Shown here one piece after another: positions 231 to 45,160 of a DNA stretch of 64,000 bases. The notes under the pieces are model-generated. The model did no database searches. It was not told the origin of the DNA and worked only from the letters and a program-made list of their open reading frames with translations. The DNA comes from Escherichia coli (GTDB lineage: Bacteria > Pseudomonadota > Gammaproteobacteria > Enterobacterales > Enterobacteriaceae): the NCBI RefSeq assembly GCF_024502345.1, contig NZ_JALDNN010000001.1. One strand, 5' to 3'. The position numbers and the translations under genes are program-made. How positions within the stretch are numbered: the first letter of the stretch is position 1; each line of letters starts with the position of its first letter.

Positions 231-1220
231 CTACTCTTCTTCGTTCCCGCCCTCTTCATACGGGCCAAATGGCTTCGCGGGCAGAACGATATACGTGCCT
301 TCAAACACTGCACCCGGCGTCTCGTCGCCAAAGATTTCAACTTGCATCTGCACCCGTGCTTTTCGTCCGCGCGCCAGACGGTCGAGATCGCCGCTTAAGG
401 CACCAAGGTCGGCTACCGCATGGGGTTTACCGCTAATCGGTTTGCTGTAGCGGATATGCGCATCCGCCAGAATAATCGTTCCGCCGAGGTGGCGTTCACG
501 CAGCATCAGCCAGATAAGCCCCCAACCGGTGAGCGTCGCCAGCGAGAATAAACTCCCGGCAAACAGCGTATGGTGCGGATTCTGATTGCCGGTTTCCGGC
601 ATGGTGGTGATAAATTTTTGCCCGGTATATTGTTGAATACGCACGCCCATTTTTTCACTAAGCGGGATATGTTCGTACCACGCCTGTTGCAGCTGCGCGC
701 ACCAGTCGCCGCGATGCAAAATATCATCCAGAGTGGCGACGGGCTTAATCATCAAAAAATGGCGAATCGGCGTGGTGGTTGGCGTGGTGATTTCTCCCTG
801 ATTAACAAACCCCAGCTTGGCGAAAAACTCCACCGCGTCTTCACGGGCGCTACAGGTCACGCGCTTAACGCCTTCCTGACGCGCCACCGACTCTAGGGTC
901 ATCGCCATCAGCGTTCCTAACCCTTTGTCCTGCACGTCCGGGTGAACGGCCATAAAGCGAATGGACGCTTCATTGTCGGCATTAATATACAGTCGGCCTA
1001 CCGCCACCAGATTACCCTGCTCGTCGACGACCATCTGGTGATGCGCCATCGCATCCCACGCGTCGCGTTCCGAACCTTTTGGTTGATGCAGGGGCTTACG
1101 CAACATTTCCCAGCGAAACTGATAGTAACGCTCTAATTCTTCTTCTGTTTGTGGAACCCGAAGGTGATACATAGCGATACTCTCTCTTGTTTCCCGTGAC
1201 AACCCTGGAAGCTGGCTCAT
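231..1220 (-). CDS. yiiD: GNAT acetyltransferase / thioesterase-like fusion protein YiiD (FabY)
   Basis: 329-aa ORF whose sequence I recognise as YiiD; start overlaps the dtd stop (ATGA), implying translational coupling. Confidence 0.9.
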
Positions 1221-3116: not shown

Positions 3117-3226
3117 TTTTGCCTCCTTTCGCGCCACAAGAAATTAACTGTAGCGGGAAAGGATGGGTTTGGCTATGTGGCAAGGTATGAAGCCAGGTCA
3201 ACGGTCACAAAAATCTACGCGTCTTC

Positions 3227-4000
3227 CTAGGGAAGAATGATTTCAATTTGGCTGTCTTGTAAGCGTGATTTTAGCGCAGCGGGCGGCAGCTCGTCGGTGA
3301 AGAGCGCGGTGACCTGTGCCACGTTACCAATTTCAACCGCCGCCGAAGCATGATACTTAGTGTGATCGGCGACCAGCAGGATATTTCTCGCGTGCGCCAT
3401 CATCGTTTTCACCACGTTAGCTTCGTTTACATCAAACTCCATCAACGCGCCATCGCTCTCGATTGCGCCTACGCTTGTTACCAGATAATCAGCACGAAAA
3501 TCGGCCACAAAGGACGCCGCTGAAGGGCCAATGATCCCGCTATTATGAGAGCGCAACGTACCGCCGGGCACCATCACTTCAAAGCGCGGGTTGTGGTAAA
3601 GAATATGCGCCACACGCAGGCTGTTGGTGATTATCCGCAAATGATTATGGTTAAGTAACGCCCGGGCGACATGCTCAACGGTCGTACCAATGGTGATAAA
3701 TATTGTTGAACCATCAGGAATATAGTCTGCCACCGCTTCGGCAATCGCTTTTTTTTCCTCGGTTTGCGAAACCTCACGCTGCTCGAACGCCGTATTAACG
3801 ACGCTGGAAGCCCGACCCGCGCCACCGTGATGGCGCGTAATCAGGCCTTGCTCGCTTAATTTACGAATATCCCGGCGCACCGTCTGCGTGGAGACATCCA
3901 GCAGATTTGCCAGCTCATCAATATTCATATACCCACGCTCGGCGATCAGCATGAGGAGTTGGTCGTGCCGCGGGTTACCGGTTAGTTCGGTAAGGCTCAT
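3227..4000 (-). CDS. yihW: DeoR-family transcriptional regulator of the sulfoquinovose cluster (CsqR/YihW)
   Basis: N-terminal HTH (MNIDELANLLDVSTQTVRRDIRKL) plus DeoR C-terminal sugar-binding domain; start chosen at ATG 3998-4000 (MSLTEL...) with GAGGAA 6 nt upstream; the track's longer start is a GTG. Confidence 0.85.
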   Translation of the reverse strand: MSLTELTGNPRHDQLLMLIAERGYMNIDELANLLDVSTQTVRRDIRKLSEQGLITRHHGGAGRASSVVNTAFEQREVSQTEEKKAIAEAVADYIPDGSTIFITIGTTVEHVARALLNHNHLRIITNSLRVAHILYHNPRFEVMVPGGTLRSHNSGIIGPSAASFVADFRADYLVTSVGAIESDGALMEFDVNEANVVKTMMAHARNILLVADHTKYHASAAVEIGNVAQVTALFTDELPPAALKSRLQDSQIEIILP

Positions 4001-4033
4001 GAAAATTCCTCGAAAAACCATCACCCTGGCATT

Positions 4034-4930
4034 TTATACAAAAAGTGACAAAAAAGATCGGGTTTGATCACAGTCAGGGATCCCGGCTCGTCCACCGGGA
4101 CGCGTGCATTTCAACGCCGCTACACCGCTGGCGAAGCGGACTGACTCCGCTAAATCCCCACCTGTTGCCAGCGCCACCGCCAATGCGCCGTGAAAAACAT
4201 CACCCGCACCTGTGGTATCTACCACATCAACTTTGAAGGCCGGTTGATGTTGACGCCCGCCATTTTCCAGCCAGTCACAGCCTGCGCTGCCCTGGGTCAC
4301 ATAGACATGACCATTTGTGAGCGTTTGTGCCTGTTTTAGCGCACTGGCCATCTCTTTCACACCCGTTAAGCGCGCCAGACCCGGTTCTGAAAAGGCCGCA
4401 TGATCGCTTAATGCCACCAGCTCGCTGATATCCTGCGGCGTAATATCACCGTCCAGAACGGTCATCACGCCCGCCTGCCGGGCCAGAGTGAAGGCTTTTT
4501 TAGCGCCGTCGTGCCAGCGTACATCTGCCAGCACAACATCCCACTGAGAGAAATCAATTTCCTCCAACCACTCTGCGTCAGGCAGCAGGTCCGGGCTGGG
4601 GTAGTTAATGATTATCCGCTCGCCTGTGGCATCCACCATGATGGCGGATTGCGATGATTTCGCCTGGTTATACCGTTTGGTGTAACGGGTGTTAACGCCC
4701 CAGGATTCCAGCTCTGCCAGCAGGCTGTTGCCCGTGTCGTCATCACCTACGCGACCCATAAAATCAACCTGCGCCCCCAGCCTTGCCGCCGCAACCGCTG
4801 CCGTCGCCGCTGGCCCGCCACCAACTTCCGTATAATTTCTCGCCACGTATTTACCGCTCTCCGTCGGTAACCCTTCCACGTAATAGATGCGATCCATCAC
4901 GGTTATACCTACACAAGCAACACGAATCAT
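4034..4930 (-). CDS. yihV: PfkB-family sugar kinase (6-deoxy-6-sulfofructose kinase YihV)
   Basis: PfkB ribokinase-like ORF with GAGD motif (DTTGAGDVFHGA); start set at the third Met (MIRVACVG...), 298 aa, with AAGGA upstream. Confidence 0.9.
   Translation of the reverse strand: MIRVACVGITVMDRIYYVEGLPTESGKYVARNYTEVGGGPAATAAVAAARLGAQVDFMGRVGDDDTGNSLLAELESWGVNTRYTKRYNQAKSSQSAIMVDATGERIIINYPSPDLLPDAEWLEEIDFSQWDVVLADVRWHDGAKKAFTLARQAGVMTVLDGDITPQDISELVALSDHAAFSEPGLARLTGVKEMASALKQAQTLTNGHVYVTQGSAGCDWLENGGRQHQPAFKVDVVDTTGAGDVFHGALAVALATGGDLAESVRFASGVAALKCTRPGGRAGIPDCDQTRSFLSLFV
4038..4050. promoter_or_regulatory. Copy 1 of exact 13-bp motif ACAAAAAGTGACA, upstream of yihW inside the 3' end of yihV; candidate regulator-binding element
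   Basis: Exact repeat of the 13-mer at 5063-5075; a chance exact 13-mer match in 64 kb is unlikely (about 1e-3). Confidence 0.4.
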
Positions 4931-4981
4931 GGTCATTCCTTAAACATTTTGGGATGCGTTCATTTTAATTTCACCAATTGT

Positions 4982-5075
4982 TTAAAAAGTGACGGCTGTC
5001 AATTTTTTGACTATAAATTACAAATACGATCAAAAACAGACAATCAAAGCGTGTCATAAATGACAAAAAGTGACA
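4982..5075. promoter_or_regulatory. yihV/yihU divergent control region with repeated AAAAAGTGAC motifs and the palindrome TGTCATAAATGACA
   Basis: AAAAAGTGAC at 4984-4993 and 5065-5074; palindrome TGTCATAAATGACA at 5052-5065; 13-mer ACAAAAAGTGACA at 5063-5075; TTGACT at 5007-5012. Lies between the divergent yihV and yihU starts. Confidence 0.45.
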
Positions 5076-5097
5076 TCGCTGTATTCAGGAGAAGGTT

Positions 5098-5994
5098 ATG
5101 GCAGCAATCGCGTTTATCGGTTTAGGACAAATGGGTTCGCCAATGGCGAGCAATTTATTGCAGCAAGGGCACCAACTTCGCGTCTTTGATGTGAATGCCG
5201 AGGCTGTGCGGCATCTGGTAGACAAAGGCGCGACTCCCGCCGCCAACCCGGCGCAGGCCGCTAAAGATGCCGAATTTATCATTACCATGTTGCCGAATGG
5301 CGATCTGGTGCGCAGCGTGTTGTTCGGTGAGAACGGCGTTTGCGAAAGCTTATCTACCGATGCGCTGGTCATTGATATGTCGACCATCCATCCGCTGCAA
5401 ACCGATAAATTGATTGCCGATATGCAAGCCAAAGGCTTCAGCATGATGGATGTTCCGGTAGGCCGTACTTCTGCAAATGCCATTACCGGTACTCTGTTAC
5501 TGCTGGCTGGCGGCACCGCTGAACAAGTTGAACGTGCCACGCCGATCCTGATGGCGATGGGCAGTGAGTTGATCAACGCTGGCGGTCCGGGCATGGGGAT
5601 CCGCGTTAAGCTCATCAACAACTATATGAGCATCGCACTCAATGCGCTTTCGGCAGAAGCTGCCGTTTTGTGCGAAGCCCTGAATCTTCCCTTCGATGTT
5701 GCCGTCAAAGTGATGAGCGGTACCGCCGCCGGTAAAGGCCACTTCACCACTTCCTGGCCAAACAAAGTCCTCAGCGGAGATCTTTCTCCCGCCTTCATGA
5801 TCGATCTTGCCCATAAGGATCTTGGCATCGCCCTTGATGTCGCCAACCAGCTGCATGTGCCAATGCCGCTGGGGGCCGCCTCACGGGAGGTTTATAGCCA
5901 GGCGCGCGCAGCGGGTCGCGGTCGCCAGGACTGGTCCGCCATTCTGGAACAGGTCCGTGTCAGTGCCGGGATGACTGCCAAAGTAAAAATGTAA
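5098..5994 (+). CDS. yihU: 3-sulfolactaldehyde reductase (3-hydroxyisobutyrate dehydrogenase family)
   Basis: 298-aa ORF with N-terminal Rossmann motif [10 protein letters not shown]; AGGAGAAGG SD upstream; matches YihU. Confidence 0.95.
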
Positions 5995-6017
5995 CGACTG
6001 GATAAAGGAATAAATGA

Positions 6018-6896
6018 ATGAATAAGTACACCATCAACGACATTACGCGCGCATCGGGCGGTTTTGCCATGCTGGCGGTCGATCAGCGCGAAGCCATGCG
6101 CATGATGTTTGCCGCGGCTGGGGCACCCGCTCCGGTAGCCGATAGCGTTTTAACTGATTTCAAAGTTAACGCGGCGAAGACCCTCTCGCCTTATGCCTCG
6201 GCGATTCTGGTAGATCAACAATTCTGTTACCGCCAGGTGGTTGAGCAAAACGCGATTGCCAAAAGTTGCGCCATGATTGTCGCCGCCGATGAGTTCATTC
6301 CTGGCAACGGTATTCCGGTAGATAGCGTGGTCATTGACCGCAAAATCAATCCGCTACAGATCAAACAAGACGGTGGCAAAGCCTTAAAACTGCTGGTGCT
6401 GTGGCGTAGTGATGAAGATGCGCAGCAACGCCTGGATATGGTGAAAGAGTTTAACGAACTGTGCCACTCACACGGCCTGGTAAGCATTATTGAGCCAGTC
6501 GTCCGCCCACCACGTCGTGGCGATAAATTCGATCGCGAACAAGCGATCATCGATGCCGCCAAAGAGCTGGGCGACAGTGGCGCTGACCTCTACAAAGTTG
6601 AAATGCCGCTTTACGGTAAAGGTCCGCAACAAGAGCTTCTCAGTGCTTCACAACGTCTGAATAACCATATCAATATGCCGTGGGTGATCCTCTCTTCCGG
6701 TGTCGACGAAAAACTGTTCCCGCGTGCCGTACGCGTGGCAATGACAGCGGGTGCATCGGGCTTCCTGGCTGGTCGTGCCGTCTGGGCATCGGTCGTCGGT
6801 TTACCAGACAACGAGTTGATGCTGCGTGACGTTTGTGCACCGAAATTACAACAACTGGGCGATATCGTCGACGAAATGATGGCTAAACGCCGTTAA
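6018..6896 (+). CDS. yihT: 6-deoxy-6-sulfofructose-1-phosphate aldolase (class I aldolase, LacD/DeoC-like)
   Basis: 292-aa ORF 24 bp downstream of yihU; matches YihT. Confidence 0.95.
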
Positions 6897-6911
6897 GATG
6901 GGGATACAAAA

Positions 6912-8153
6912 ATGAAATGGTTTAACACTTTAAGTCACAACCGTTGGCTGGAACAGGAAACCGATCGCATCTTTGATTTTGGTAAAAATTCCGTAGTACC
7001 GACCGGATTTGGCTGGTTAGGCAATAAAGGGCAAATCAAAGAAGAGATGGGCACCCATCTGTGGATCACAGCTCGTATGTTGCACGTTTATTCCGTTGCT
7101 GCGGCGATGGGTCGACCTGGCGCTTACTCGTTGGTTGATCACGGTATTAAAGCCATGAACGGCGCACTGCGCGATAAAAAATATGGCGGCTGGTATGCCT
7201 GTGTGAATGACGAGGGCGTGGTGGATGCCTCCAAACAGGGCTATCAACATTTCTTTGCTCTGCTGGGTGCTGCCAGCGCCGTCACTACCGGTCATCCGGA
7301 AGCGCGCAAGCTGCTCGATTACACCATTGAAATTATCGAGAAATACTTCTGGAGCGAAGAAGAGCAGATGTGCCTGGAGTCCTGGGACGAAGCCTTCAGC
7401 AAAACCGAAGAGTACCGCGGCGGCAATGCCAATATGCACGCAGTGGAAGCTTTCTTAATTGTTTATGACGTAACGCATGACAAAAAATGGCTGGATCGCG
7501 CGATTCGCGTGGCTTCCGTGATTATCCACGACGTCGCAAGAAATAATCATTATCGCGTTAACGAACACTTCGATACCCAGTGGAATCCGCTGCCGGATTA
7601 CAACAAAGATAACCCGGCGCACCGCTTCCGCGCGTTCGGAGGTACACCAGGCCACTGGATCGAATGGGGCCGTTTAATGCTGCACATCCACGCGGCCCTG
7701 GAAGCCCGTTGCGAACAACCGCCAGCATGGTTGCTAGAAGATGCCAAAGGTCTGTTTAACGCCACCGTGCGTGATGCCTGGGCACCCGATGGTGCGGACG
7801 GGATTGTTTATACCGTTGACTGGGAAGGAAAACCGGTGGTCCGCGAACGTGTGCGTTGGCCTATCGTCGAAGCGATAGGTACGGCCTACGCGCTCTACAC
7901 CGTCACCGGCGATCGCCAGTATGAAACCTGGTATCAGACATGGTGGGACTACTGCATTAAGTACCTGATGGACTATGAAAATGGTTCCTGGTGGCAGGAG
8001 CTGGATGCGGACAATAAAGTCACCACGAAAGTCTGGGACGGCAAACAGGATATTTATCACCTGCTGCATTGCCTGGTGATCCCGCGTATCCCGTTAGCGC
8101 CAGGCCTGGCTCCGGCAGTTGCGGCGGGTCTGCTGGATATTAACGCGAAATAA
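6912..8153 (+). CDS. yihS: Sulfoquinovose isomerase (N-acylglucosamine 2-epimerase fold)
   Basis: 413-aa ORF; matches YihS. Confidence 0.95.
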
Positions 8154-8333
8154 CTGACTAAAAAAAAACGACATATCAGGCTGCACGCCGGGTATGTCGT
8201 TATTCAATAAAGGTACCTCGTATGCAAATCACCAACATGCATTGCAGTGGACAGACCGTTTCACTTGCCGCGGGGGATTATCACGCGACCATTGTGACCG
8301 TCGGTGCAGGTCTGGCTGAATTAACCTTTCAGG

Positions 8334-9554
8334 TGTAGATTCAATTGGTCAACGCAACAGTTATGTGAAAACATGGGGTTGCGGAGGTTTTTTGAATGAG
8401 ACGAACATTTACAGCAGAGGAAAAAGCCTCTGTTTTTGAACTATGGAAGAACGGAACAGGCTTCAGTGAAATAGCGAATATCCTGGGTTCAAAACCCGGA
8501 ACGATCTTCACTATGTTAAGGGATACTGGCGGCATAAAACCCCATGAGCGTAAGCGGGCTGTAGCTCACCTGACACTGTCTGAGCGCGAGGAGATACGAG
8601 CTGGTTTGTCAGCCAAAATGAGCATTCGTGCGATAGCTACTGCGCTGAATCGCAGTCCTTCGACGATCTCACGTGAAGTTCAGCGTAATCGGGGCAGACG
8701 CTATTACAAAGCTGTTGATGCTAATAACCGAGCCAACAGAATGGCGAAAAGGCCAAAACCGTGCTTACTGGATCAAAATTTACCATTGCGAAAGCTTGTT
8801 CTGGAAAAGCTGGAGATGAAATGGTCTCCAGAGCAAATATCAGGATGGTTAAGGCGAACAAAACCACGTCAAAAAACGCTGCGAATATCACCTGAGACAA
8901 TTTATAAAACGCTGTACTTTCGTAGCCGTGAAGCGCTACACCACCTGAATATACAGCATCTGCGACGGTCGCATAGCCTTCGCCATGGCAGGCGTCATAC
9001 CCGCAAAGGCGAAAGAGGTACGATTAACATAGTGAACGGAACACCAATTCACGAACGTTCCCGAAATATCGATAACAGACGCTCTCTGGGGCATTGGGAG
9101 GGCGATTTAGTCTCAGGTACAAAAAACTCTCATATAGCCACACTTGTAGACCGAAAATCACGTTATACGATCATCCTTAGACTCAGGGGCAAAGATTCTG
9201 TCTCAGTAAATCAGGCTCTTACCGACAAATTCCTGAGTTTACCGTCAGAACTCAGAAAATCACTGACATGGGACAGAGGAATGGAACTGGCCAGACATCT
9301 AGAATTTACTGTCAGCACCGGCGTTAAAGTTTACTTCTGCGATCCTCAGAGTCCTTGGCAGCGGGGAACAAATGAGAACACAAATGGGCTAATTCGGCAG
9401 TACTTTCCTAAAAAGACATGTCTTGCCCAATATACTCAACATGAACTAGATCTGGTTGCTGCTCAGCTAAACAACAGACCGAGAAAGACACTGAAGTTCA
9501 AAACACCGAAAGAGATAATTGAAAGGGGTGTTGCATTGACAGATTGAATCTACA
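8334..9554 (+). mobile_element. Insertion sequence IS30, complete 1221-bp copy, flanked by 2-bp target-site duplication GG
   Basis: Left end TGTAGATTCAATTGGTCAACGCAACAGTTATGTG..., right end ...TTGACAGATTGAATCTACA (terminal inverted repeats); length 1221 bp; GG at 8332-8333 and 9555-9556; encodes a 383-aa transposase. Confidence 0.95.
8396..9547 (+). CDS. insI: IS30 transposase (DDE family)
   Basis: 383-aa ORF MRRTFTAEEKASVFELWKNGTGF... with N-terminal HTH and C-terminal DDE domain; recognised as the IS30 transposase. Confidence 0.95.
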   Translation: MRRTFTAEEKASVFELWKNGTGFSEIANILGSKPGTIFTMLRDTGGIKPHERKRAVAHLTLSEREEIRAGLSAKMSIRAIATALNRSPSTISREVQRNRGRRYYKAVDANNRANRMAKRPKPCLLDQNLPLRKLVLEKLEMKWSPEQISGWLRRTKPRQKTLRISPETIYKTLYFRSREALHHLNIQHLRRSHSLRHGRRHTRKGERGTINIVNGTPIHERSRNIDNRRSLGHWEGDLVSGTKNSHIATLVDRKSRYTIILRLRGKDSVSVNQALTDKFLSLPSELRKSLTWDRGMELARHLEFTVSTGVKVYFCDPQSPWQRGTNENTNGLIRQYFPKKTCLAQYTQHELDLVAAQLNNRPRKTLKFKTPKEIIERGVALTD

Positions 9555-10407
9555 GGGCTGTCATTTAGTTATTCCACATAAACCCGAAGAGATGCCGCTG
9601 GCACATCTGGGCAAAGTCCTTATTCCGTGGCCGAACCGGATCGCCAACGGCTGTTATCGCTATCAGGGGCAGGAATATCAGTTACCCATTAATGAACATG
9701 GTTCAAAAGCCGCTATTCATGGGCTGCTCGCCTGGCGTGACTGGCAAATCAGCGAATTAACCGCCACCAGCGTTACCCTGACAGCTTTTCTGCCACCCAG
9801 TTACGGCTATCCGTTTATGCTGGCTTCGCAGGTTGTTTATTCGCTCAATGCACGCACGGGTCTTTCCGTTGAGATCGCAAGTCAGAATATTGGTACTGTG
9901 ACCGCACCCTATGGTGTGGGTATTCATCCTTATTTAACCTGCAACTTAACATCTGTTGATGAATATCTGTTCCAGCTTCCGGCAAACCAGGTTTATGCCG
10001 TCGATGAGCACGCTAATCCGACAACGCTTCACCACGTTGATGAGCTGGATTTAAATTTCACGCAGGCGAAAAAAATAGCCGCGACAAAAATCGACCACAC
10101 CTTTAAAACCGCTAATGATCTGTGGGAAATAACCATTACCCATCCACAACAGGCGCTTTCGGTAAGCCTTTGTTCCGATCAACCCTGGGTGCAGATTTAT
10201 AGCGGCGAAAAATTACAGCGTCAGGGACTGGCAGTTGAACCTATGAGTTGCCCACCTAACGCCTTTAATTCAGGTCTCGACTTATTATTACTGGAACCAG
10301 GGAAAACGCACCGCCTGTTTTTTAATATTTACGGGCAGCACAATTAATTTTATTAAGAAAAGAACGAGATCATTGTTTAGGGTTGTATTTACACAACAGG
10401 AAATATC

Positions 10408-11283
10408 ATGGACTTTTTTACGTTATTTTCACCGGATGGGGTCATGCTGGAAACAAACGTGGTATGTATCGTTATCGCGTTAATGTTTCTTTATACCTTT
10501 GTGGGGATATGCGCGGGATTTGGCGGTGGTTTAACCACCATGCCGCTCGTCACGTTAATGCTCCCCGTAAAAATGGCAACTCCGCTCTCGGTGATTGTCG
10601 GCACCGCGACCGCCTTGTACGCCACCTGGCTGTCACGTAAAGAAACGGATTGGCGATCGGCAATGGTACTGATTATTTTCTCGTTTCTGGGAATACCCGT
10701 CGGTTTATATGCGCTGTCATATTTACCCGACCATTTTATGAAAGTGGGCTTAGGCGGATTCCTTATCCTGTACTCCTTTTACAGTATGTTTATTCCACGC
10801 CTGCCGATTTATGACCGCAACTGGATCGCCGCACCTATCGGCGCTGTGGCAGGAGCGTTAGGGGCAGCGTTTTCAACCAACGGACCGCCGATGGTTATCT
10901 ACGGTATGCTGCGTAACTTAGGCCCGGCGGCATTTCGTGGCACTCTGAACGCTTTCTTCACCGCAAACAACATCGCGGTGATCGGCGGGCTGGCGACCAG
11001 CGGAATTTTGACTGTTTCTATCTTTAAACTGGTGCTGTTTTGTATTCCCACCATGATCCTCGGTTCACTGGTTGGACAATATGTGCATAAACGCATTTCA
11101 GTCAAAGTGTTCCGTGTGATGGTCTTTTTGTTGCTGATTGCCTCCGGTTCTATGTTGATAAAAGGCGCGCTGGGAATTCCCGCTGCTGCCGCGCTTCTGC
11201 CTCCTTTTACCTTGTTAGTTATACTGCAACTGGCATTTGGTAAAAAAGTGGCGGCAATCCGCCGGGCTGAAGAAAGTAAATAA
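10408..11283 (+). CDS. TauE/SafE (TSUP, DUF81) family anion permease; putative sulfite or organosulfonate exporter
   Basis: 291-aa polytopic membrane protein with the family hallmark glycine motif (GICAGFGGGLTTMPL) and a second repeat (GAVAGALGAAFSTNGPP); AGGAAA SD 6 nt before the ATG; host-like GC and codon usage. Sits between yihR and yihQ. Confidence 0.8.
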   Translation: MDFFTLFSPDGVMLETNVVCIVIALMFLYTFVGICAGFGGGLTTMPLVTLMLPVKMATPLSVIVGTATALYATWLSRKETDWRSAMVLIIFSFLGIPVGLYALSYLPDHFMKVGLGGFLILYSFYSMFIPRLPIYDRNWIAAPIGAVAGALGAAFSTNGPPMVIYGMLRNLGPAAFRGTLNAFFTANNIAVIGGLATSGILTVSIFKLVLFCIPTMILGSLVGQYVHKRISVKVFRVMVFLLLIASGSMLIKGALGIPAAAALLPPFTLLVILQLAFGKKVAAIRRAEESK

Positions 11284-11391
11284 TCACTTATGCGGGTTTT
11301 AATTTATACCAGCACCACATTCTTTAATTAATGAAACCTGTAACAACAGGATGGCATGAAATATTAGCTTTATACTCTATGGAGATTATTT

Positions 11392-13424
11392 ATGGATACG
11401 CCACGCCCACAATTACCAGATTTTCAGTTTCATCAGAATAACGACAGTTTTACCCTACATTTTCAACAGCGTCTTATTTTAACCCATAGCAAAGATAATC
11501 CTTGTTTATGGATTGGTTCAGGTATTGCGGATATCGATATGTTCCGCGGCAATTTCAGCATTAAAGATAAACTACAGGAGAAAATTGCGCTTACCGACGC
11601 CATCGTCAGCCAGTCGCCGGATGGTTGGTTAATCCATTTCAGCCGTGGTTCTGACATTAGCGCCACGCTGAATATCTCTGCCGACGATCAGGGCCGTTTA
11701 TTGCTGGAACTACAAAACGACAACCTTAACCACAACCGTATCTGGCTGCGCCTTGCCGCTCAACCAGAGGACCATATCTACGGCTGCGGCGAACAGTTTT
11801 CCTACTTCGATCTGCGTGGCAAACCGTTCCCGCTATGGACCAGTGAACAAGGCGTTGGTCGCAATAAACAAACCTATGTCACCTGGCAGGCCGACTGCAA
11901 AGAAAATGCGGGCGGCGACTATTACTGGACTTTCTTCCCACAGCCTACGTTTGTCAGCACGCAGAAGTATTACTGCCATGTTGATAACAGTTGCTATATG
12001 AACTTCGACTTTAGTGCCCCGGAATACCATGAACTGGCGCTGTGGGAAGACAAAGCAACGCTGCGTTTTGAATGTGCTGACACATACATCTCCCTGCTGG
12101 AAAAATTAACCGCCCTGCTGGGACGCCAGCCAGAACTGCCCGACTGGATTTATGACGGAGTAACGCTCGGCATTCAGGGCGGGACGGAAGTGTGCCAGAA
12201 GAAACTGGACACCATGCGTAACGCGGGCGTGAAGGTCAACGGCATCTGGGCGCAGGACTGGTCCGGTATTCGTATGACCTCTTTTGGCAAACGCGTGATG
12301 TGGAACTGGAAGTGGAACAGCGAAAACTACCCGCAACTGGATTCGCGTATCAAGCAGTGGAACAAAGAGGGCGTGCAGTTCCTTGCCTATATCAACCCGT
12401 ATGTTGCCAGTGATAAAGATCTCTGCGAAGAGGCGGCAAAGCGCGGTTATCTGGCAAAAGATGTCGCCGGTGGCGACTATCTGGTGGAGTTTGGCGAGTT
12501 CTACGGCGGCGTTGTCGATCTCACCAATCCGGAAGCCTACGCCTGGTTCAAGGAAGTTATCAAAAAGAACATGATTGAACTCGGCTGCGGCGGCTGGATG
12601 GCTGACTTCGGCGAGTATCTGCCCACCGACACGTACCTGCATAACGGCATCAGCGCGGAAATTATGCATAACGCCTGGCCCGCGCTGTGGGCGAAATGTA
12701 ACTACGAAGCCTTGAAGAAACGGGCAAGCTCGGCGAGATCCTCTTCTTTATGCGCGCCGGTTCTACCGGTAGCCAGAAATACTCCACCATGATGTGGGCG
12801 GGTGACCAGAACGTGGACTGGAGTCTGGACGATGGCCTGGCGTCGGTTGTCCCGGCGGCGCTATCTCTGGCAATGACCGGACATGGCCTGCATCACAGCG
12901 ACATTGGCGGTTATACCACCCTGTTTGAGATGAAGCGCAGCAAAGAGCTGCTGCGCTGGTGCGATTTCAGCGCCTTCACGCCGATGATGCGCACCCACGA
13001 AGGTAACCGTCCTGGCGACAACTGGCAGTTTGACGGCGACGCGGAAACCATCGCCCATTTCGCCCGTATGACCACCGTCTTCACCACCCTGAAACCTTAC
13101 CTGAAAGAGGCCGTCGCGCTGAATGCGAAGTCCGGCCTGCCGGTTATGCGCCCGCTGTTCCTGCATTACGAAGACGACGCGCAGACCTATTCCCTGAAAT
13201 ATCAGTACCTGTTAGGTCGCGACATTCTGATTGCTCCGGTACACGAAGAAGGTCGCAGCGACTGGACGCTCTATCTGCCAGAGGATAACTGGGTCCACGC
13301 CTGGACCGGAGAAACCTTCCACGGTGGAGAAATAACTGTTGAAGCGCCCATCGGCAAGCCGCCGGTCTTTTATCGCGCCGACAGCGAATGGGCTGCACTG
13401 TTCGCCTCGTTAAAAAACATCTAA
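11392..13424 (+). pseudogene. yihQ: Sulfoquinovosidase (GH31) gene with a -1 frameshift
   Basis: Two overlapping ORFs (11392-12792 and 12750-13424) in different frames both match YihQ. Frame 1 reads ...CNYEAL through 12712-12714; frame 2 reads EETGKLGEILFFMRAGS from 12714. Continuity needs GCC TTG GAA GAA where the sequence has GCC TTG AAG AAA, i.e. one G missing at 12714/12715. Confidence 0.8.
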
Positions 13425-13469
13425 TCATGCCCGCCCGTGGGGAAACTCACGGGCAAATGGAGAATAACG

Positions 13470-14855
13470 ATGAGTCACATCACAACGGAAGATCCGGCAA
13501 CTTTGCGCCTGCCCTTTAAAGAGAAACTCTCTTACGGTATCGGCGATCTGGCCTCTAACATCCTGCTGGATATTGGTACGCTTTATCTTTTGAAGTTTTA
13601 TACCGACGTTCTGGGGCTACCTGGCACCTATGGCGGCATTATCTTTTTGATCTCGAAATTCTTTACCGCCTTTACCGATATGGGAACCGGCATCATGTTG
13701 GATTCCCGGCGTAAGATTGGCCCGAAAGGTAAGTTCCGCCCTTTCATTTTGTACGCGTCATTCCCGGTCACCTTATTGGCAATCGCTAACTTTATCGGCA
13801 CACCGTTCGATGTCACTGGTAAAACGGTGATGGCCACTATTCTATTTATGCTCTACGGGCTGTTTTTCAGCATGATGAACTGCTCCTACGGCGCAATGGT
13901 TCCCGCCATTACCAAAAACCCCAACGAACGCGCATCGCTGGCGGCATGGCGTCAGGGTGGTGCTACATTGGGCCTGCTGCTGTGTACGGTGGGATTCGTG
14001 CCGGTGATGAACCTTATCGAAGGTAATCCGCAACTGAGCTACGTTTTCGCCGCCACGCTATTTTCACTGTTCGGCCTGCTGTTTATGTGGATCTGCTACT
14101 CGGGCGTGAAAGAGCGTTATGTCGAAACCCAACCTGCTAATCAGGCGCAAAAGCCAGGCTTGCTGCAATCTTTCCGCGCAATTGCCGGTAACCGCCCACT
14201 GTTCATTCTGTGTATTGCCAACCTCTGCACCTTAGGGGCGTTTAACGTCAAGCTCGCCATTCAGGTCTATTACACCCAGTACGTGCTTAACGATCCCATC
14301 CTGTTGTCGTATATGGGATTTTTTAGCATGGGCTGTATTTTCATCGGCGTGTTCCTGATGCCTGGCGCAGTTAGACGTTTTGGTAAGAAGAAGGTCTATA
14401 TCGGCGGCCTGCTGATTTGGGTGCTTGGCGATCTGCTCAACTATTTCTTCGGCGGCGGCTCGGTCAGTTTTGTGGCGTTCTCCTGCCTGGCATTCTTTGG
14501 CTCGGCGTTTGTTAACAGCCTGAACTGGGCGCTGGTTTCCGACACCGTCGAGTACGGCGAGTGGCGCACCGGTGTCCGTTCTGAAGGGACGGTCTACACC
14601 GGCTTCACCTTCTTTCGCAAAGTGTCTCAGGCGCTGGCTGGTTTCTTCCCCGGCTGGATGCTGACGCAAATCGGCTATGTGCCGAACGTGGCGCAGGCTG
14701 ACCACACCATTGAAGGGTTGCGCCAGCTGATCTTCATCTACCCAAGCGCACTGGCGGTAGTCACCATTGTGGCGATGGGTTGCTTCTACAGTCTGAACGA
14801 GAAGATGTACGTCCGCATTGTTGAAGAAATAGAAGCCCGTAAACGCACGGCGTAA
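13470..14855 (+). CDS. yihP: GPH-family (glycoside-pentoside-hexuronide:cation symporter) transporter
   Basis: Start set at ATG 13470 (MSHITTEDPATLRL...) preceded by GGAG; 461 aa; paralogous to the adjacent yihO. Confidence 0.9.
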   Translation: MSHITTEDPATLRLPFKEKLSYGIGDLASNILLDIGTLYLLKFYTDVLGLPGTYGGIIFLISKFFTAFTDMGTGIMLDSRRKIGPKGKFRPFILYASFPVTLLAIANFIGTPFDVTGKTVMATILFMLYGLFFSMMNCSYGAMVPAITKNPNERASLAAWRQGGATLGLLLCTVGFVPVMNLIEGNPQLSYVFAATLFSLFGLLFMWICYSGVKERYVETQPANQAQKPGLLQSFRAIAGNRPLFILCIANLCTLGAFNVKLAIQVYYTQYVLNDPILLSYMGFFSMGCIFIGVFLMPGAVRRFGKKKVYIGGLLIWVLGDLLNYFFGGGSVSFVAFSCLAFFGSAFVNSLNWALVSDTVEYGEWRTGVRSEGTVYTGFTFFRKVSQALAGFFPGWMLTQIGYVPNVAQADHTIEGLRQLIFIYPSALAVVTIVAMGCFYSLNEKMYVRIVEEIEARKRTA

Positions 14856-14894
14856 TAATAAACGACGCCCTGCGGGGCGTTATAAGGAGTGATT

Positions 14895-16298
14895 ATGTCT
14901 GACCATAATCCACTGACATTAAAACTGAATCTGCGGGAAAAAATCGCCTATGGTATGGGCGACGTTGGTTCGAATTTAATGCTTAGCATCGGTACTCTGT
15001 ATCTCCTCAAATTTTATACCGATGAATTAGGGATGCCAGCTTACTATGGCGGGATTATCTTTCTGGTGGCGAAGTTTTTTACCGCGTTTACCGATATGCT
15101 CACCGGATTTTTACTCGACTCGCGGAAAAATATTGGGCCTAAAGGCAAATTTCGTCCCTTTATTTTATATGCAGCGGTTCCGGCGGCGTTAATTGCAACG
15201 CTCCAGTTTATCGCCACCACTTTTAGTTTGCCGGTTAAAACGACGATTGCCACGGCGCTGTTTATGATGTTTGGGCTTTCATACAGTCTGATGAACTGCT
15301 CGTATGGCGCGATGATCCCGGCAATTACCAAAAACCCGAATGAGCGCGCGCAGCTCGCTGCTTACCGCCAGGGTGGTGCAACCATAGGGCTATTGATTTG
15401 TACCGTGGCGTTTATTCCGTTGCAGTCGCTTTTTTCTGACTCAACCGTCGGTTATGCCTGTGCGGCACTTATGTTCTCCATTGGCGGCTTTATTTTTATG
15501 ATGCTGTGCTACAGAGGCGTCAAAGAGCATTATGTGGACACAGCGCCAACCGGACATAAAGCCAGTATTCTCAAATCATTTTGCGCGATATTTCGGAATC
15601 CGCCATTGCTGGTTTTATGCATTGCTAACTTGTGTACCCTGGCGGCATTTAATATCAAACTGGCGATTCAGGTCTATTACACCCAGTATGTGCTGCATGA
15701 TATTAATTTATTGTCGTGGATGGGATTCTTCAGTATGGGATGCATCCTCATCGGCGTATTACTGGTGCCATTAACTGTAAAATGTTTTGGTAAAAAACAG
15801 GTTTATTTAGCTGGCATGGTGCTATGGGCGGTTGGTGATATCCTGAATTATTTCTGGGGAAGTAACTCTTTCACTTTCGTCATGTTCTCTTGTGTCGCCT
15901 TTTTTGGCACGGCCTTTGTAAACAGCCTGAACTGGGCGCTGGTACCAGATACCGTAGATTACGGTGAATGGAAAACCGGTATTCGTGCCGAAGGTTCTGT
16001 TTATACCGGTTATACCTTCTTTCGTAAAATTTCTGCCGCACTTGCTGGCTTCTTGCCAGGCATTATGCTGACGCAAATCGGTTATGTTCCCAACATCGCG
16101 CAAAGTGATGCGACATTACAGGGTTTGCGTCAGCTCATTTTTATCTGGCCTTGTGCACTGGCAATTATTGCTGCATTGACGATGGGATTCTTTTACACAC
16201 TCAATGAAAAACGGTTTGCGTTGATTATTGAGGAAATCAACCAACGCAAAAATAAAGAAATTGAGACAGAAGAAAAAACGGCTTCCGTAACGTTATAA
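14895..16298 (+). CDS. yihO: GPH-family transporter (sulfoquinovose / SQ-glycerol importer)
   Basis: Start set at ATG 14895 (MSDHNPLTLKL...) with AAGGAG 5 nt upstream; 467 aa. Confidence 0.9.
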   Translation: MSDHNPLTLKLNLREKIAYGMGDVGSNLMLSIGTLYLLKFYTDELGMPAYYGGIIFLVAKFFTAFTDMLTGFLLDSRKNIGPKGKFRPFILYAAVPAALIATLQFIATTFSLPVKTTIATALFMMFGLSYSLMNCSYGAMIPAITKNPNERAQLAAYRQGGATIGLLICTVAFIPLQSLFSDSTVGYACAALMFSIGGFIFMMLCYRGVKEHYVDTAPTGHKASILKSFCAIFRNPPLLVLCIANLCTLAAFNIKLAIQVYYTQYVLHDINLLSWMGFFSMGCILIGVLLVPLTVKCFGKKQVYLAGMVLWAVGDILNYFWGSNSFTFVMFSCVAFFGTAFVNSLNWALVPDTVDYGEWKTGIRAEGSVYTGYTFFRKISAALAGFLPGIMLTQIGYVPNIAQSDATLQGLRQLIFIWPCALAIIAALTMGFFYTLNEKRFALIIEEINQRKNKEIETEEKTASVTL

Positions 16299-16364
16299 AT
16301 GTCAATAGCCGCTATTTCCATCCTGGTGGGTGGCGGCCTCCCTACGTTTAAAAATGGACTTATT

Positions 16365-17057
16365 ATGAAAAATATTAATGCAATAATTTTATTATCTTCT
16401 CTGACCTCTGCCTCAGTATTCGCTGGCGCATACGTCGAAAACAGGGAGGCATATAATCTCGCCTCCGATCAGGGCGAGGTTATGCTACGTGTGGGTTATA
16501 ACTTCGATATGGGCGCGGGTATTATGTTAACCAATACCTACACCTTTCAGCGAGAAGATGAACTAAAACATGGATATAACGAAATCGAAGGTTGGTATCC
16601 GTTATTTAAACCAACCGATAAATTAACCATCCAGCCCGGTGGCTTAATTAATGATAAGAGTATCGGTTCGGGTGGTGCAGTGTATCTGGACGTCAACTAT
16701 AAATTTGTACCATGGTTTAATCTGACAGTACGAAATCGCTATAACCATAATAACTATAGTTCAACAGATTTGAGCGGGGAACTGGATAATAATGACACCT
16801 ATGAAATTGGTACCTACTGGAATTTTAAAATCACCGATAAGTTCTCCTATACATTTGAGCCACATTATTTTATACGCGTAAATGACTTTAATAGCAGCAA
16901 TGGAAAAGATCATCACTGGGAAATCACTAACACCTTCCGTTATCGCATTAATGAACACTGGCTGCCTTATTTCGAATTACGCTGGTTAGATCGTAATGTC
17001 GAACCGTACCACCGCGAGCAAAACCAGATTCGTATCGGGACGAAGTATTTCTTCTGA
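16365..17057 (+). CDS. ompL: Outer-membrane porin OmpL
   Basis: Start set at ATG 16365 (MKNINAIILLSSLTSASVFA, signal peptide); 230 aa; ends in an aromatic C-terminal residue (F) typical of beta-barrel proteins. Confidence 0.85.
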   Translation: MKNINAIILLSSLTSASVFAGAYVENREAYNLASDQGEVMLRVGYNFDMGAGIMLTNTYTFQREDELKHGYNEIEGWYPLFKPTDKLTIQPGGLINDKSIGSGGAVYLDVNYKFVPWFNLTVRNRYNHNNYSSTDLSGELDNNDTYEIGTYWNFKITDKFSYTFEPHYFIRVNDFNSSNGKDHHWEITNTFRYRINEHWLPYFELRWLDRNVEPYHREQNQIRIGTKYFF

Positions 17058-28652: not shown

Positions 28653-29159
28653 TTAGTTGCCCCGCAGCAGACGCATCATGTCTTCTTGCTTCTCGTCTTC
28701 TTCCTCTTCTTCGTCATCGTCATAAGAGAGGCCGAGTTTCTGCATCAACTCATCAATACGATCCAGTTTAGCATCCACCCAGGATTGCTCTTCGGCACTC
28801 AGGGTTTCGCCTGCTTCCAGACGTTCCAGCAGCGCATCCAGACGCTCATCCGTTTCCAGTAATTCCAACTCCGCCTGCGGTGAAAGCATAGGTTTCTCAC
28901 TCTTCGGTTTGTGCTGTTTGGTGACTTTTTCAGTCACGCCCAATGGAATAGGGGTTTTACTGCCAATACGTGGATCTTTTGGTGCGTTCTGGCCTTTGCT
29001 GCCTGACGTGGTGTTACCGCCCGCTGCGCGGCTGCCCGGCGCATGACCACGACGTTTTTTCTGACGCTTGCGGTCACGTGCTTCCTGATTCAGCTCTTCG
29101 CGCGTTTTGCGACGCGCTTTTGCATGACCTTTGCTGCGTGATGGTGAAGATGGTTTCAT
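28653..29159 (-). CDS. yihI: Der GTPase-activating protein YihI
   Basis: Start set at the Met of [18 protein letters not shown]...; basic N-terminus and acidic C-terminus ([10 protein letters not shown]). Confidence 0.9.
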
Positions 29160-39690: not shown

Positions 39691-39702
39691 CTGCTTAATT
39701 TG

Positions 39703-39822
39703 ATGCCTGGCAGTTCCCTACTCTCGCATGGGGAGACCCCACACTACCATCGGCGCTACGGCGTTTCACTTCTGAGTTCGGCATGGGGTCAGGTGGGACC
39801 ACCGCGCTACGGCCGCCAGGCA
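39703..39822 (-). rRNA. rrfA: 5S ribosomal RNA
   Basis: 120-nt reverse complement matches the E. coli 5S sequence (TGCCTGGCGGCCGTAGCGCGGTGGTCCCACCTGACC...CTGCCAGGCAT). Confidence 0.95.
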
Positions 39823-39914
39823 AATTCTGTTTTATCAGACCGCTTCTGCGTTCTGATTTAATCTGTATCAGGCTGAAAATCTTCTCTCATCCGCCAAAAC
39901 ATCTTCGGCGTTGT

Positions 39915-42817
<2,903 letters not shown>

Positions 42818-43000
42818 TCACAACCCGAAGATGTTTCTTGCGATCCATCATCGTGTTGCGAAAATTTGAGAGACTCACGAACAACTTTCGTTGTTCAGTG
42901 TTTCAATTTTCAGCTTGATCCAGATTTTTAAAGAGCAAAACTTCGCAGTGAACCTTTTCAGGTACACTCTGAAGTATTTTTTATTTAATCACTACAGAGA

Positions 43001-43076
43001 TGGTGGAGCTATGCGGGATCGAACCGCAGACCTCCTGCGTGCAAAGCAGGCGCTCTCCCAGCTGAGCTATAGCCCC
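43001..43076 (-). tRNA. alaT: tRNA-Ala (UGC), 16S-23S spacer tRNA
   Basis: Reverse complement GGGGCTATAGCTCAGCTGGGAGAGCGCCTGCTTTGCACGCAGGAGGTCTGCGGTTCGATCCCGCATAGCTCCACCA. Confidence 0.95.
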
Positions 43077-43118
43077 ATAACATGTAGTTAAAACCTCTTC
43101 AAATTTGCCGTGCAAATT

Positions 43119-43195
<77 letters not shown>

Positions 43196-43263
43196 GTAGA
43201 GGTTTTACTGCTCATTTTCATCAGACAATCTGTGTGAGCACTGCAAAGAACGCTTCTTTAAGG

Positions 43264-44805
<1,542 letters not shown>

Positions 44806-44984
44806 AAGTTTGATGCTCAAAGAATTAAACTTCGTAATGAATTACGTGTTCACTCTTGAGACTTGGTATTCATTTTTCGTCTTGCGACGTTAAGAATCCG
44901 TATCTTCGAGTGCCCACACAGATTGTCTGATAAATTGTTAAAGAGCAGTGCCGCTTCGCTTTTTCTCAGCGGCGCGGGGTGTGC

Positions 44985-45160
44985 ATAATACGCTTTCCCG
45001 CCACAGAGTCAAGCATTTATTTTTGCTTTCTCTGTTGAGATTCTCAGGAGAACCCCGCTGACCCGGCGGCGTGTTTGCCGTTGTTCCGTGTCAGTGGTGG
45101 CGCATTATAGGGAGTTATTCCGGCCTGACAAGAGGAAATTTAAAATAATTTTCTGACCGC
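44985..45160 (-). promoter_or_regulatory. rrn tandem promoters P2 and P1 with A/T-rich UP element
   Basis: Minus-strand P1: -35 TTGTCA (45126-45131), 16-bp spacer, -10 TATAAT (45104-45109), A/T-rich UP region 45132-45155. P2: -35 TTGACT (45007-45012), -10 TATTAT (44985-44990). Confidence 0.8.

What the first reader, a model, noticed from the sequence alone, without database searches (positions are those of the whole stretch)
12700..12760. Single-base deletion frameshift in the sulfoquinovosidase gene yihQ separates its two catalytic aspartates
Frame 1 reads ...CNYEAL through 12712-12714 and then terminates after 26 out-of-frame codons; frame 2 reads EETGKLGEILFFMRAGSTGSQKYSTMMWAGDQNVDW from 12714. 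Continuity needs GCC TTG GAA GAA, but the sequence is GCC TTG AAG AAA, so one G is missing at 12714/12715. The GH31 nucleophile region (GGWMADFGE) stays in the N-terminal product, and the acid/base region (MMWAGDQ) falls in the shifted frame. The enzyme is therefore predicted inactive unless frameshifting or reinitiation at the Met at 12750 yields separate fragments.
Basis: partly seen in the sequence, partly recalled or inferred. Interest (0 to 1): 0.6.

Follow-up and report, generated by a model that had tools for sequence, protein, structure and literature searches.

The report
Inherited frameshift pseudogene of yihQ
The E. coli sulfoquinovosidase gene yihQ is broken here by a real, inherited one-base deletion, with an IS30 element in the neighbouring gene yihR; this is ordinary gene decay in a pathway that E. 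coli often lacks.

Summary
yihQ (11392-13424, +) is 2,033 nt against 2,037 nt in intact copies. The frameshift is the loss of one C from a CCC run (reference GCC CTT GAA; window GCC TTG AAG, CC at 12710-12711). It is not a missing G at 12714/15. The N-terminal product keeps residues 1-441, including nucleophile D405, then adds 25 junk residues. Acid/base D472, Y508 and H537 lie in the -1 frame.

It is not a sequencing error. It is the only frameshifting indel among the 51 reference genes checked in the window. The same allele is present at nucleotide level in 15 independent samples (isolate assemblies, gut metagenomes, raw-read assemblies). One relative has the frameshift alone, so the frameshift came first.

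I found no slippery site for frameshifting and no ribosome-binding site for restart at Met454. Residues 442-453 are in neither product.

No complete E. coli genome searched shares the allele, but 28% lack yihQ altogether (the known "short yih cassette"). Verdict: a real, ordinary, lineage-specific pseudogene of low novelty.

The parts
11392..13424 (+). yihQ pseudogene (GH31 sulfoquinovosidase), 2,033 nt versus 2,037 nt in intact alleles
   Evidence: 99.8% identical to intact yihQ of strain 203740 with 4 gap columns and 1 mismatch. The copy repaired with one C scores 1,236 bits on NCBIfam NF007746 (cutoff 553).
12710..12711 (+). Frameshift site: CC where all intact alleles have CCC (Ala440 GCC / Leu441 CTT)
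   Evidence: MAFFT alignments to L001 and to K-12. No exact 61-mer match in any of the 3,599 complete E. coli genomes that match this stretch.
11392..12792 (+). N-terminal ORF, 466 aa: native residues 1-441 (with nucleophile D405 at 12604-12606), then 25 out-of-frame residues and TGA at 12790-12792
   Evidence: It matches NF007746 profile positions 3-446. The exact product is encoded on at least 24 contigs in 49 index blocks.
12750..13424 (+). C-terminal ORF, 224 aa, from Met454: carries acid/base D472 (12804-12806), Y508 and H537. This frame is open from 12702, after TAA at 12699-12701.
   Evidence: It matches NF007746 profile positions 455-680. There is no Shine-Dalgarno sequence upstream.
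12947..12953 (+). Second lesion: (GCT)2G where intact alleles have (GCT)3G. In-frame loss of one Leu of L520-L522.
   Evidence: Absent from all 3,727 complete genomes that match this stretch. Absent from relative L012, which already has the frameshift.
13230..13230 (+). G->A substitution (Val->Ile) downstream of the premature stop
   Evidence: Shared by the window-like assemblies and absent from L012.
8334..9554 (+). IS30, 1,221 bp (transposase ORF 8396-9547), inserted in yihR with a 2-bp GG target duplication (8332-8333 and 9555-9556)
   Evidence: 100% identical to annotated IS30 copies on plasmids. NF033563 transpos_IS30 scores 276 bits. Junctions read. The junction occurs in 0 of 5,426 complete genomes.
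8222..10347 (+). yihR (sulfoquinovose mutarotase / aldose-1-epimerase) split by IS30 into 8222-8333 and 9555-10347
   Evidence: Reference yihR aligns as nt 1-112 and 109-903 on either side of the insertion, both at 100% identity.
3215..8153 (.). Rest of the sulfo-EMP core: csqR (4000-3215, -, Q258* trims 4 aa), yihV (4930-4034, -), yihU (5098-5994), yihT (6018-6896), yihS (6912-8153). All are otherwise intact.
   Evidence: Gene-by-gene audit. The exact 257-aa CsqR is on 214 contigs.
10408..11283 (+). TauE/SafE-like gene between yihR and yihQ: intact, 100% identical to the reference, and downstream of the IS30 in the same orientation
   Evidence: annotation of L001, L002 and L004.
13470..17057 (+). 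Downstream cassette genes yihP (13470-14855), yihO (14895-16298) and ompL (16365-17057), all intact in the window
   Evidence: yihP carries a further +T frameshift in a sub-lineage (L009, L013).

Best explanation
yihQ in this window is a genuine, vertically inherited pseudogene in a minor E. coli lineage.

Shown: one C was lost from a CCC run at codons 440/441. Translation from the native start gives residues 1-441, which are the N-terminal domain plus the first part of the GH31 catalytic domain with nucleophile D405. It then reads 25 unrelated residues and stops. The acid/base D472 and the sulfonate- and sugar-binding residues Y508 and H537 are no longer in frame.

Inferred: no active sulfoquinovosidase is made, so the strain cannot release sulfoquinovose (SQ) from SQ-glycerol or plant sulfolipid.

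Shown: the frameshift came first. Relative L012 has it on an otherwise identical yihQ. The window's branch then added a 3-bp deletion and a Val->Ile change, both in the part of the gene that is no longer translated. It also gained an IS30 in yihR.

Inferred: YihR is the mutarotase that converts the alpha-SQ released by YihQ into the beta-SQ used by YihS. The lineage has therefore lost the glycoside-entry module (YihQ plus YihR). The genes for free-SQ breakdown and transport (yihS, yihV, yihT, yihU, yihO, yihP, ompL) still have intact reading frames in the window. Whether they are still expressed downstream of the IS30 is not known.
For: (1) Alignment to two intact alleles and to K-12 gives the same two deletions, and restoring one C restores a 677-codon ORF.

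(2) D405 is the nucleophile and D472 the acid/base of E. coli YihQ, with Y508 and H537 in substrate binding (bioRxiv 10.64898/2026.02.11.705467, citing Speciale 2016). The protein is the one solved as PDB 5AED. The residue positions were verified.

(3) The assembly is not indel-prone. The only gaps in 24 kb aligned to L002 are the two in yihQ. Of the 51 reference CDSs found in the window, only yihQ and yihR are disrupted.

(4) The allele has been sampled independently many times. The exact 466-aa product is on at least 24 contigs in 49 index blocks. The frameshift motif was confirmed at nucleotide level in 17 loci from 15 samples: 5 NCBI assemblies, 6 ENA metagenome assemblies and 4 Logan read-run assemblies. 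Six of these loci also contain the same IS30-yihR junction, and a seventh (L009) begins at it.

(5) Order of events: L012 equals the window from 10360 to 13619 except that it lacks the 3-bp deletion and the 13230 A.

(6) Decay continues. L009 and L013 share an extra T in yihP, and L012 has an IS1 end abutting window-equivalent position 10360, between yihR and the TauE-like gene.

(7) There is no rescue signal.

(8) YihQ-YihR coupling: PMC8006165.

(9) Loss of yihQ is tolerated in the species. 1,513 of 5,426 complete genomes have no yihQ, which matches the documented short cassette yihTUVW (PMC12608037).
Against: No expression or enzyme data exist for this lineage, so inactivity is predicted rather than measured. 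With only three later mutations in yihQ, the relaxed-selection argument is anecdotal. The N-terminal fragment still scores above the NCBIfam cutoff (773 bits), so an automatic annotator could call it a protein. The ATG at 12750 does open a 224-aa ORF that holds all the missing catalytic residues. Its weak SD score (-3.6 kcal/mol) is no worse than that of ompL (-3.0).
Confidence: 0.9

Rival explanations
1. Sequencing or assembly artefact: a homopolymer miscall (CCC read as CC) in one assembly, with the gene actually intact.
For: The lesion sits in a short homopolymer. No complete RefSeq E. coli genome has it.
Against: The identical allele, including the 25-residue out-of-frame tail, is found in 15 independent samples from isolate assemblies, metagenomes and separate raw-read assemblies. 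The window has no other frameshifting indel among the 51 genes checked. A 3-nt run is not a typical error site.
Confidence: 0.01
2. Recoding: a programmed -1 ribosomal frameshift or transcriptional slippage restores a full-length, active YihQ at some level.
For: A -1 shift is the direction needed. An 88-nt window (12702-12789) is open in both frames.
Against: That window has no X_XXY_YYZ heptamer and no homopolymer of 5 or more bases. It has only two weak X_XXN tetramers (TTTA at 12747, AAAT at 12777). A shift at either would replace native residues 442-453 or more with junk. The CC site itself is not slippery. The later 3-bp deletion, the yihR::IS30 insertion and the yihP frameshift in relatives look like neglect, not maintenance.
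Confidence: 0.02
3. Split enzyme: the N-terminal fragment (1-441 plus tail) and a C-terminal fragment restarted at Met454 (ATG 12750) associate non-covalently into an active barrel.
For: Both ORFs exist and together cover profile positions 3-446 and 455-680 of the YihQ model. The ATG at 12750 lies 40 nt upstream of the premature stop, so ribosomes terminate nearby.
Against: There is no recognisable SD sequence: the best match is 3/6 at 17-nt spacing, at -3.6 kcal/mol versus -5.5 to -8.8 for most real starts in the cassette. Restarting would require ribosomes to move backwards from the stop. Residues 442-453 (EETGKLGEILFF) are in neither product. By homology with other GH31 enzymes (from my own knowledge, not tested here), this segment is the barrel strand just before the conserved Arg, so the barrel would lack a core strand. 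The C-terminal part has since acquired a deletion and a substitution.
Confidence: 0.03
4. Recurrent mutation: the same C is lost repeatedly in unrelated strains at a mutational hotspot, rather than once in one lineage.
For: L012 is only 99.0% identical to the window over 8.4 kb.
Against: L012's divergence is confined almost entirely to yihP (13619-14810), a recombination patch. Its yihQ and upstream sequence (10360-13619) are identical to the window apart from the two later changes. None of the 3,599 complete genomes that match this stretch shows the deletion, which argues against a hotspot.
Confidence: 0.05

Closest known systems
E. coli K-12 YihQ sulfoquinovosidase (GH31; PDB 5AED/5AEE/5AEG/5OHT)
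   Same: It is the same gene at the same locus, 95.9% identical in DNA to MG1655 yihQ and 99.8% to the closest intact alleles. All the catalytic and sulfonate-binding residues checked (Q288, R301, W304, D405, D472, Y508, H537) are encoded.
   Different: The reading frame is broken after residue 441, and one Leu of L520-522 is deleted. No single product contains both catalytic aspartates.
Short yih cassette (yihTUVW) of E. coli Nissle 1917 and many pathogenic strains (PMC12608037)
   Same: It is a natural E. coli state that lacks YihQ and YihR function. 28% of complete genomes have no yihQ.
   Different: In the short cassette the genes ompL-yihOPQRS are absent altogether and the cassette is inverted. 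Here the long cassette is present, and two genes are inactivated by point and IS mutations while yihS, yihO, yihP and ompL remain intact.
Other sporadic lesions of the yih cassette: yihQ::IS1 in strain 1506, yihT internal stop plus ompL::IS30 in strain C9, yihP frameshift in Shigella flexneri 2a
   Same: These are independent inactivating mutations in the same cassette in other strains (PMC12330013).
   Different: They are different genes or sites, and none shares this allele.

Membership tests
YihQ sulfoquinovosidase (NCBIfam NF007746 / PRK10426 equivalog; GH31) | Full-length match to the equivalog model above its curated cutoff | tested here: met
   The conceptual translation with one C restored scores 1,236 bits against a cutoff of 553, covering profile positions 3-680 of 683. 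This shows the DNA descends from yihQ. It does not show that a functional protein is made.
YihQ sulfoquinovosidase (functional enzyme) | Nucleophile Asp (D405) and acid/base Asp (D472) on one polypeptide | tested here: not met
   D405 (12604-12606) is in the 466-aa ORF. D472 (12804-12806) is in the -1 frame, after the shift at 12710-12711.
YihQ sulfoquinovosidase (functional enzyme) | Sulfonate-recognition residues R301, W304 and Y508, plus Q288 | tested here: inconclusive
   All four are encoded but are split between fragments. Q288, R301 and W304 are in the N-terminal product; Y508 is in the C-terminal frame.
YihQ sulfoquinovosidase (functional enzyme) | Hydrolysis of SQ glycosides | not testable with these tools
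   Needs an enzyme assay or a growth test.
Sulfo-EMP long yih cassette (ompL-yihOPQRSTUVW) | All ten genes present, in the conserved order, between fabY/dtd/yihXY and yihN/yihM/yihL | tested here: met
   The gene-by-gene audit finds every gene in order. There is an additional TauE-like gene, as in many non-K-12 strains.
Sulfo-EMP long yih cassette (ompL-yihOPQRSTUVW) | All genes intact | tested here: not met
   yihQ is frameshifted and yihR is interrupted by IS30.
IS30 | 1,221-bp element with a single transposase ORF, terminal inverted repeats and a 2-bp target duplication | tested here: met
   100% identity over 1,219 bp to annotated IS30 copies. NF033563 scores 276 bits against a cutoff of 80. 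The ends read TGTAGATTCAAT...ATTGAATCTACA and are flanked by GG/GG.
Programmed -1 frameshift site | Slippery heptamer X_XXY_YYZ in the zero frame within the region where both frames are open | tested here: not met
   None found in 12702-12789.

The most novel reading that the evidence does not exclude
The break is not a full loss of function. Either low-level -1 recoding or non-covalent assembly of the 466-aa and 224-aa products retains some sulfoquinovosidase activity, which would make this a naturally split GH31 enzyme.

A milder and more likely variant is that the lineage has become a free-SQ scavenger. It would have shed only the glycoside-entry module (YihQ plus YihR) and would depend on other gut bacteria to release SQ. 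I put that variant at about 0.3, but it is only moderately novel.
Probability: 0.03. Interest if true: 0.5.

Novelty: already known. Interest (0 to 1): 0.15.

Why it matters
It matters little beyond strain-level annotation. The practical consequence is a predicted phenotype. Isolates of this lineage should fail to grow on SQ-glycerol or sulfolipid, and may still use free SQ if the IS30 in yihR does not silence the downstream genes.

The finding adds a third route by which E. coli loses sulfoquinovosidase: point mutation plus IS decay inside the long cassette. The other two are the documented short cassette and sporadic IS hits. The allele also marks a small lineage found in human gut metagenomes.

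For the scan, the useful result is that the frameshift is real rather than an assembly error, and that the two disrupted genes act at consecutive steps.

Tried and rejected
(1) Shigella origin. The 98.6-99.2% identity to E. coli plus an IS element suggested it. I rejected it because exact-match proteins from the window are all named Escherichia coli.

(2) Shared yihR::IS30 in strains H51-H53. I rejected this because strain C9's IS30 is in ompL, and the junction is in 0 of 5,426 complete genomes.

(3) csqR "internal stop" as a third hit on the cassette. I downgraded it. Q258* removes only 4 residues and is a common allele on 214 contigs.

(4) Apparent large deletion in L020 and yihO truncation in L011. 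I rejected both as real events. In each locus the alignment to the window breaks at a 100-base stretch with no match, which I read as a scaffold gap.

(5) The 3-bp deletion as a compensating second-site change. I rejected this because -1 and -3 still leave a -1 shift.

(6) Source genome. Exact matches to YihX, YihO and YihS sit on a 4,736,520-bp NCBI contig, but the look-up of encoding contigs did not return that record. The source strain and its sequence type remain unidentified.

(7) Literature search for "yihQ" with "pseudogene" found no description of this allele.

Full report
**1. What is in the sequence**

The region 11392-13424 (+) is yihQ, the GH31 sulfoquinovosidase of the E. coli sulfo-EMP (yih) cassette.
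- It matches annotated yihQ in 3,909 of 5,426 complete E. coli genomes, with a best identity of 99.8%.
- Intact copies are 2,037 nt; this copy is 2,033 nt.
- The ORF list shows a 466-aa ORF (11392-12792) and an overlapping 224-aa ORF in the -1 frame (12750-13424).

**2. The exact lesions**

Alignment to the intact allele of strain 203740 (L001) and to K-12 MG1655 (L025) gives the same answer each time.
- **Frameshift.** One C is missing from a CCC run. The reference reads GAA GCC CTT GAA GAA; the window reads GAA GCC TTG AAG AAA, with CC at 12710-12711. The ancestral codon is CTT. Leu441 is still encoded, by chance, so the native sequence runs to residue 441.
- **3-bp deletion.** A GCT unit is missing from (GCT)3G at 12947-12953, which removes one Leu of L520-522.
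- **Substitution.** G->A at 13230 changes Val to Ile.

Restoring a single C gives an uninterrupted 677-codon ORF. That ORF scores 1,236 bits on the YihQ equivalog model NF007746 (cutoff 553). The two actual ORFs cover profile positions 3-446 and 455-680.

**3. Consequence for the enzyme**

In E. coli YihQ, D405 is the nucleophile and D472 the acid/base. Q288, R301, W304 and Y508 recognise the sugar and its sulfonate, and H537 contributes to substrate binding (citing Speciale 2016). The protein is the one solved as 5AED. I verified all these residues in the reference translation.
- The N-terminal product is residues 1-441 plus 25 unrelated residues.
- D472, Y508 and H537 are out of frame.
- Residues 442-453 are in neither ORF.

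No single product can carry out the two-carboxylate retaining mechanism. This step is an inference from the sequence and the published mechanism, not a measurement.

**4. Real mutation or artefact?**

Two independent lines show it is real.
- **The assembly is clean.** Against L002, 24 kb aligns with only two gap openings, both in yihQ. I audited 51 reference genes across the whole window. Only yihQ and yihR are disrupted. Every other indel is intergenic, in the rRNA operon, or in-frame (yihI).
- **The allele has been sampled many times.** The exact 466-aa product, junk tail included, is encoded on at least 24 contigs in 49 index blocks. I confirmed the frameshift motif at nucleotide level in 17 fetched loci from 15 distinct samples: five NCBI assemblies, six ENA metagenome assemblies and four Logan assemblies of separate read runs. 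One of them (GCA_050022275.1) is 100.000% identical to the window over 9.3 kb.

**5. Context: a second hit on the same functional module**

A 1,221-bp IS30 sits at 8334-9554. It is 100% identical to annotated IS30 copies and has a GG target duplication. It lies inside yihR after nt ~110. Six related assemblies contain the same IS30-yihR junction at the start of their contigs, and a seventh (L009) begins at it, as expected when short-read assemblies break at an IS.

YihR is the mutarotase that converts the alpha-SQ released by YihQ into the beta-SQ that YihS prefers (PMC8006165). So the two disrupted genes act at consecutive steps, at the entry point for SQ glycosides.

The remaining cassette genes are intact in the window: yihV, yihU, yihT, yihS, the TauE-like gene, yihP, yihO and ompL. 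csqR carries Q258*, which trims four residues. That allele is common, on 214 contigs, so I do not count it as a lesion.

**6. Order of events and ongoing decay**

- L012 (GCA_014329185.1) has the frameshift on a yihQ that is otherwise identical to the window's. It lacks the 3-bp deletion and the 13230 A. Its divergence from the window is confined almost entirely to a recombination patch in yihP.
- So the frameshift arose once, by descent, and came first. The other two yihQ changes accumulated later, in the part of the gene that is no longer translated.
- L012 also has an IS1 end abutting window-equivalent position 10360, between yihR and the TauE-like gene.
- Two independent datasets (L009, L013) share an extra T in yihP.

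This is what relaxed selection on a dead module looks like, although the counts are small.

**7. Rescue routes**

A -1 shift would be needed, and both frames are open only in 12702-12789.
- **Frameshifting.** That stretch has no X_XXY_YYZ heptamer and no homopolymer of 5 or more bases. It has only two weak tetramers, and a shift at either would leave junk in place of residues 442-453.
- **Restart.** The ATG at 12750 has no Shine-Dalgarno sequence. The best match is 3/6 at 17-nt spacing, at -3.6 kcal/mol against -5.5 to -8.8 for most real starts nearby. ompL, at -3.0, shows this score alone is not decisive.

I rate recoding at about 2% and split-enzyme complementation at about 3%.

**8. How unusual is it?**

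The allele itself is rare.
- None of the ~3,600 complete genomes that match these stretches has either deletion.
- None of the 5,426 complete genomes has the yihR::IS30 junction.

Lack of YihQ, however, is commonplace in E. coli.
- 1,513 of 5,426 complete genomes (28%) have no detectable yihQ, even with sensitive blastn.
- That corresponds to the published short cassette yihTUVW of Nissle 1917 and many pathogenic strains (PMC12608037).
- Other sporadic lesions exist: yihQ::IS1 in strain 1506, a yihT internal stop plus ompL::IS30 in strain C9, and a yihP frameshift in S. flexneri (PMC12330013).

**9. Verdict**

The interpretation that the enzyme is inactivated is supported. The thing is an ordinary, inherited pseudogene within a partly decaying, dispensable catabolic cassette. 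Novelty is low and interest is low. The only mildly interesting point is that the two genes hit form the glycoside-entry module. That predicts a strain unable to use SQ glycosides but possibly still able to use free SQ.

Noticed in passing
window 8334-9554: A complete IS30 (1,221 bp, GG target duplication) interrupts yihR, the SQ mutarotase gene. The same junction is in 6 related assemblies and in 0 of 5,426 complete E. coli genomes.
   Followed up: yes
window 12947-12953 and 13230: There is a second, in-frame 3-bp deletion in a (GCT)3 repeat of yihQ (LLL->LL) and a Val->Ile substitution. Both lie downstream of the premature stop, and both are absent from relative L012, which has only the frameshift.
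   Followed up: yes
window 10408-11283: A 291-aa TauE/SafE-family 'sulfite exporter' gene sits between yihR and yihQ. K-12 MG1655 has only a 198-bp spacer there, and the published description of the long yih cassette does not list this gene. Its role in a pathway that exports DHPS rather than sulfite is unclear.
   Followed up: partly
window 3227-3229 (csqR, minus strand): The repressor gene csqR (yihW) has a CAG->TAG change at codon 258 of 261, which trims four residues. The exact 257-aa protein is on 214 contigs, so it is a common allele and probably harmless.
   Followed up: partly
window 231-1172, 6912-8153, 13470-14855: Identity to the reference is mosaic. fabY (96.2%), yihS (96.6%) and yihP (96.2%) are much more divergent from strain ET201 than their neighbours (99-100%). 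L012 differs from the window almost only within yihP. These look like recombination patches inside and beside the cassette.
   Followed up: partly
L009 and L013, window-equivalent ~13998 (yihP): Two independent datasets (ERZ28663999 and ERR12304324) share an extra T (TT->TTT) that splits yihP into 185-aa and 282-aa ORFs. This is a further frameshift in a sub-lineage of the same clade.
   Followed up: partly
L012:1-109 (window-equivalent 10360): In GCA_014329185.1 the contig begins with an IS1 end, 100% identical to annotated IS1 copies. It abuts the spacer between the yihR stop and the TauE-like gene start.
   Followed up: partly
L010:1-49 and L011:1-49 (window-equivalent 10103): Two metagenome scaffolds from one study join an internal piece of an IS66-family tnpC gene to the 3' part of yihR. 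This could be a real rearrangement or an assembly chimera; it is unresolved.
   Followed up: partly
window 28653-29159 (yihI) and 39700-45030 (rRNA operon and flanks): yihI has an in-frame 3-bp indel relative to strain CFSAN004176. Several 1-3-bp indels lie in the 23S/16S rRNA operon and its flanking spacers. None affects a protein-coding frame.
   Followed up: no
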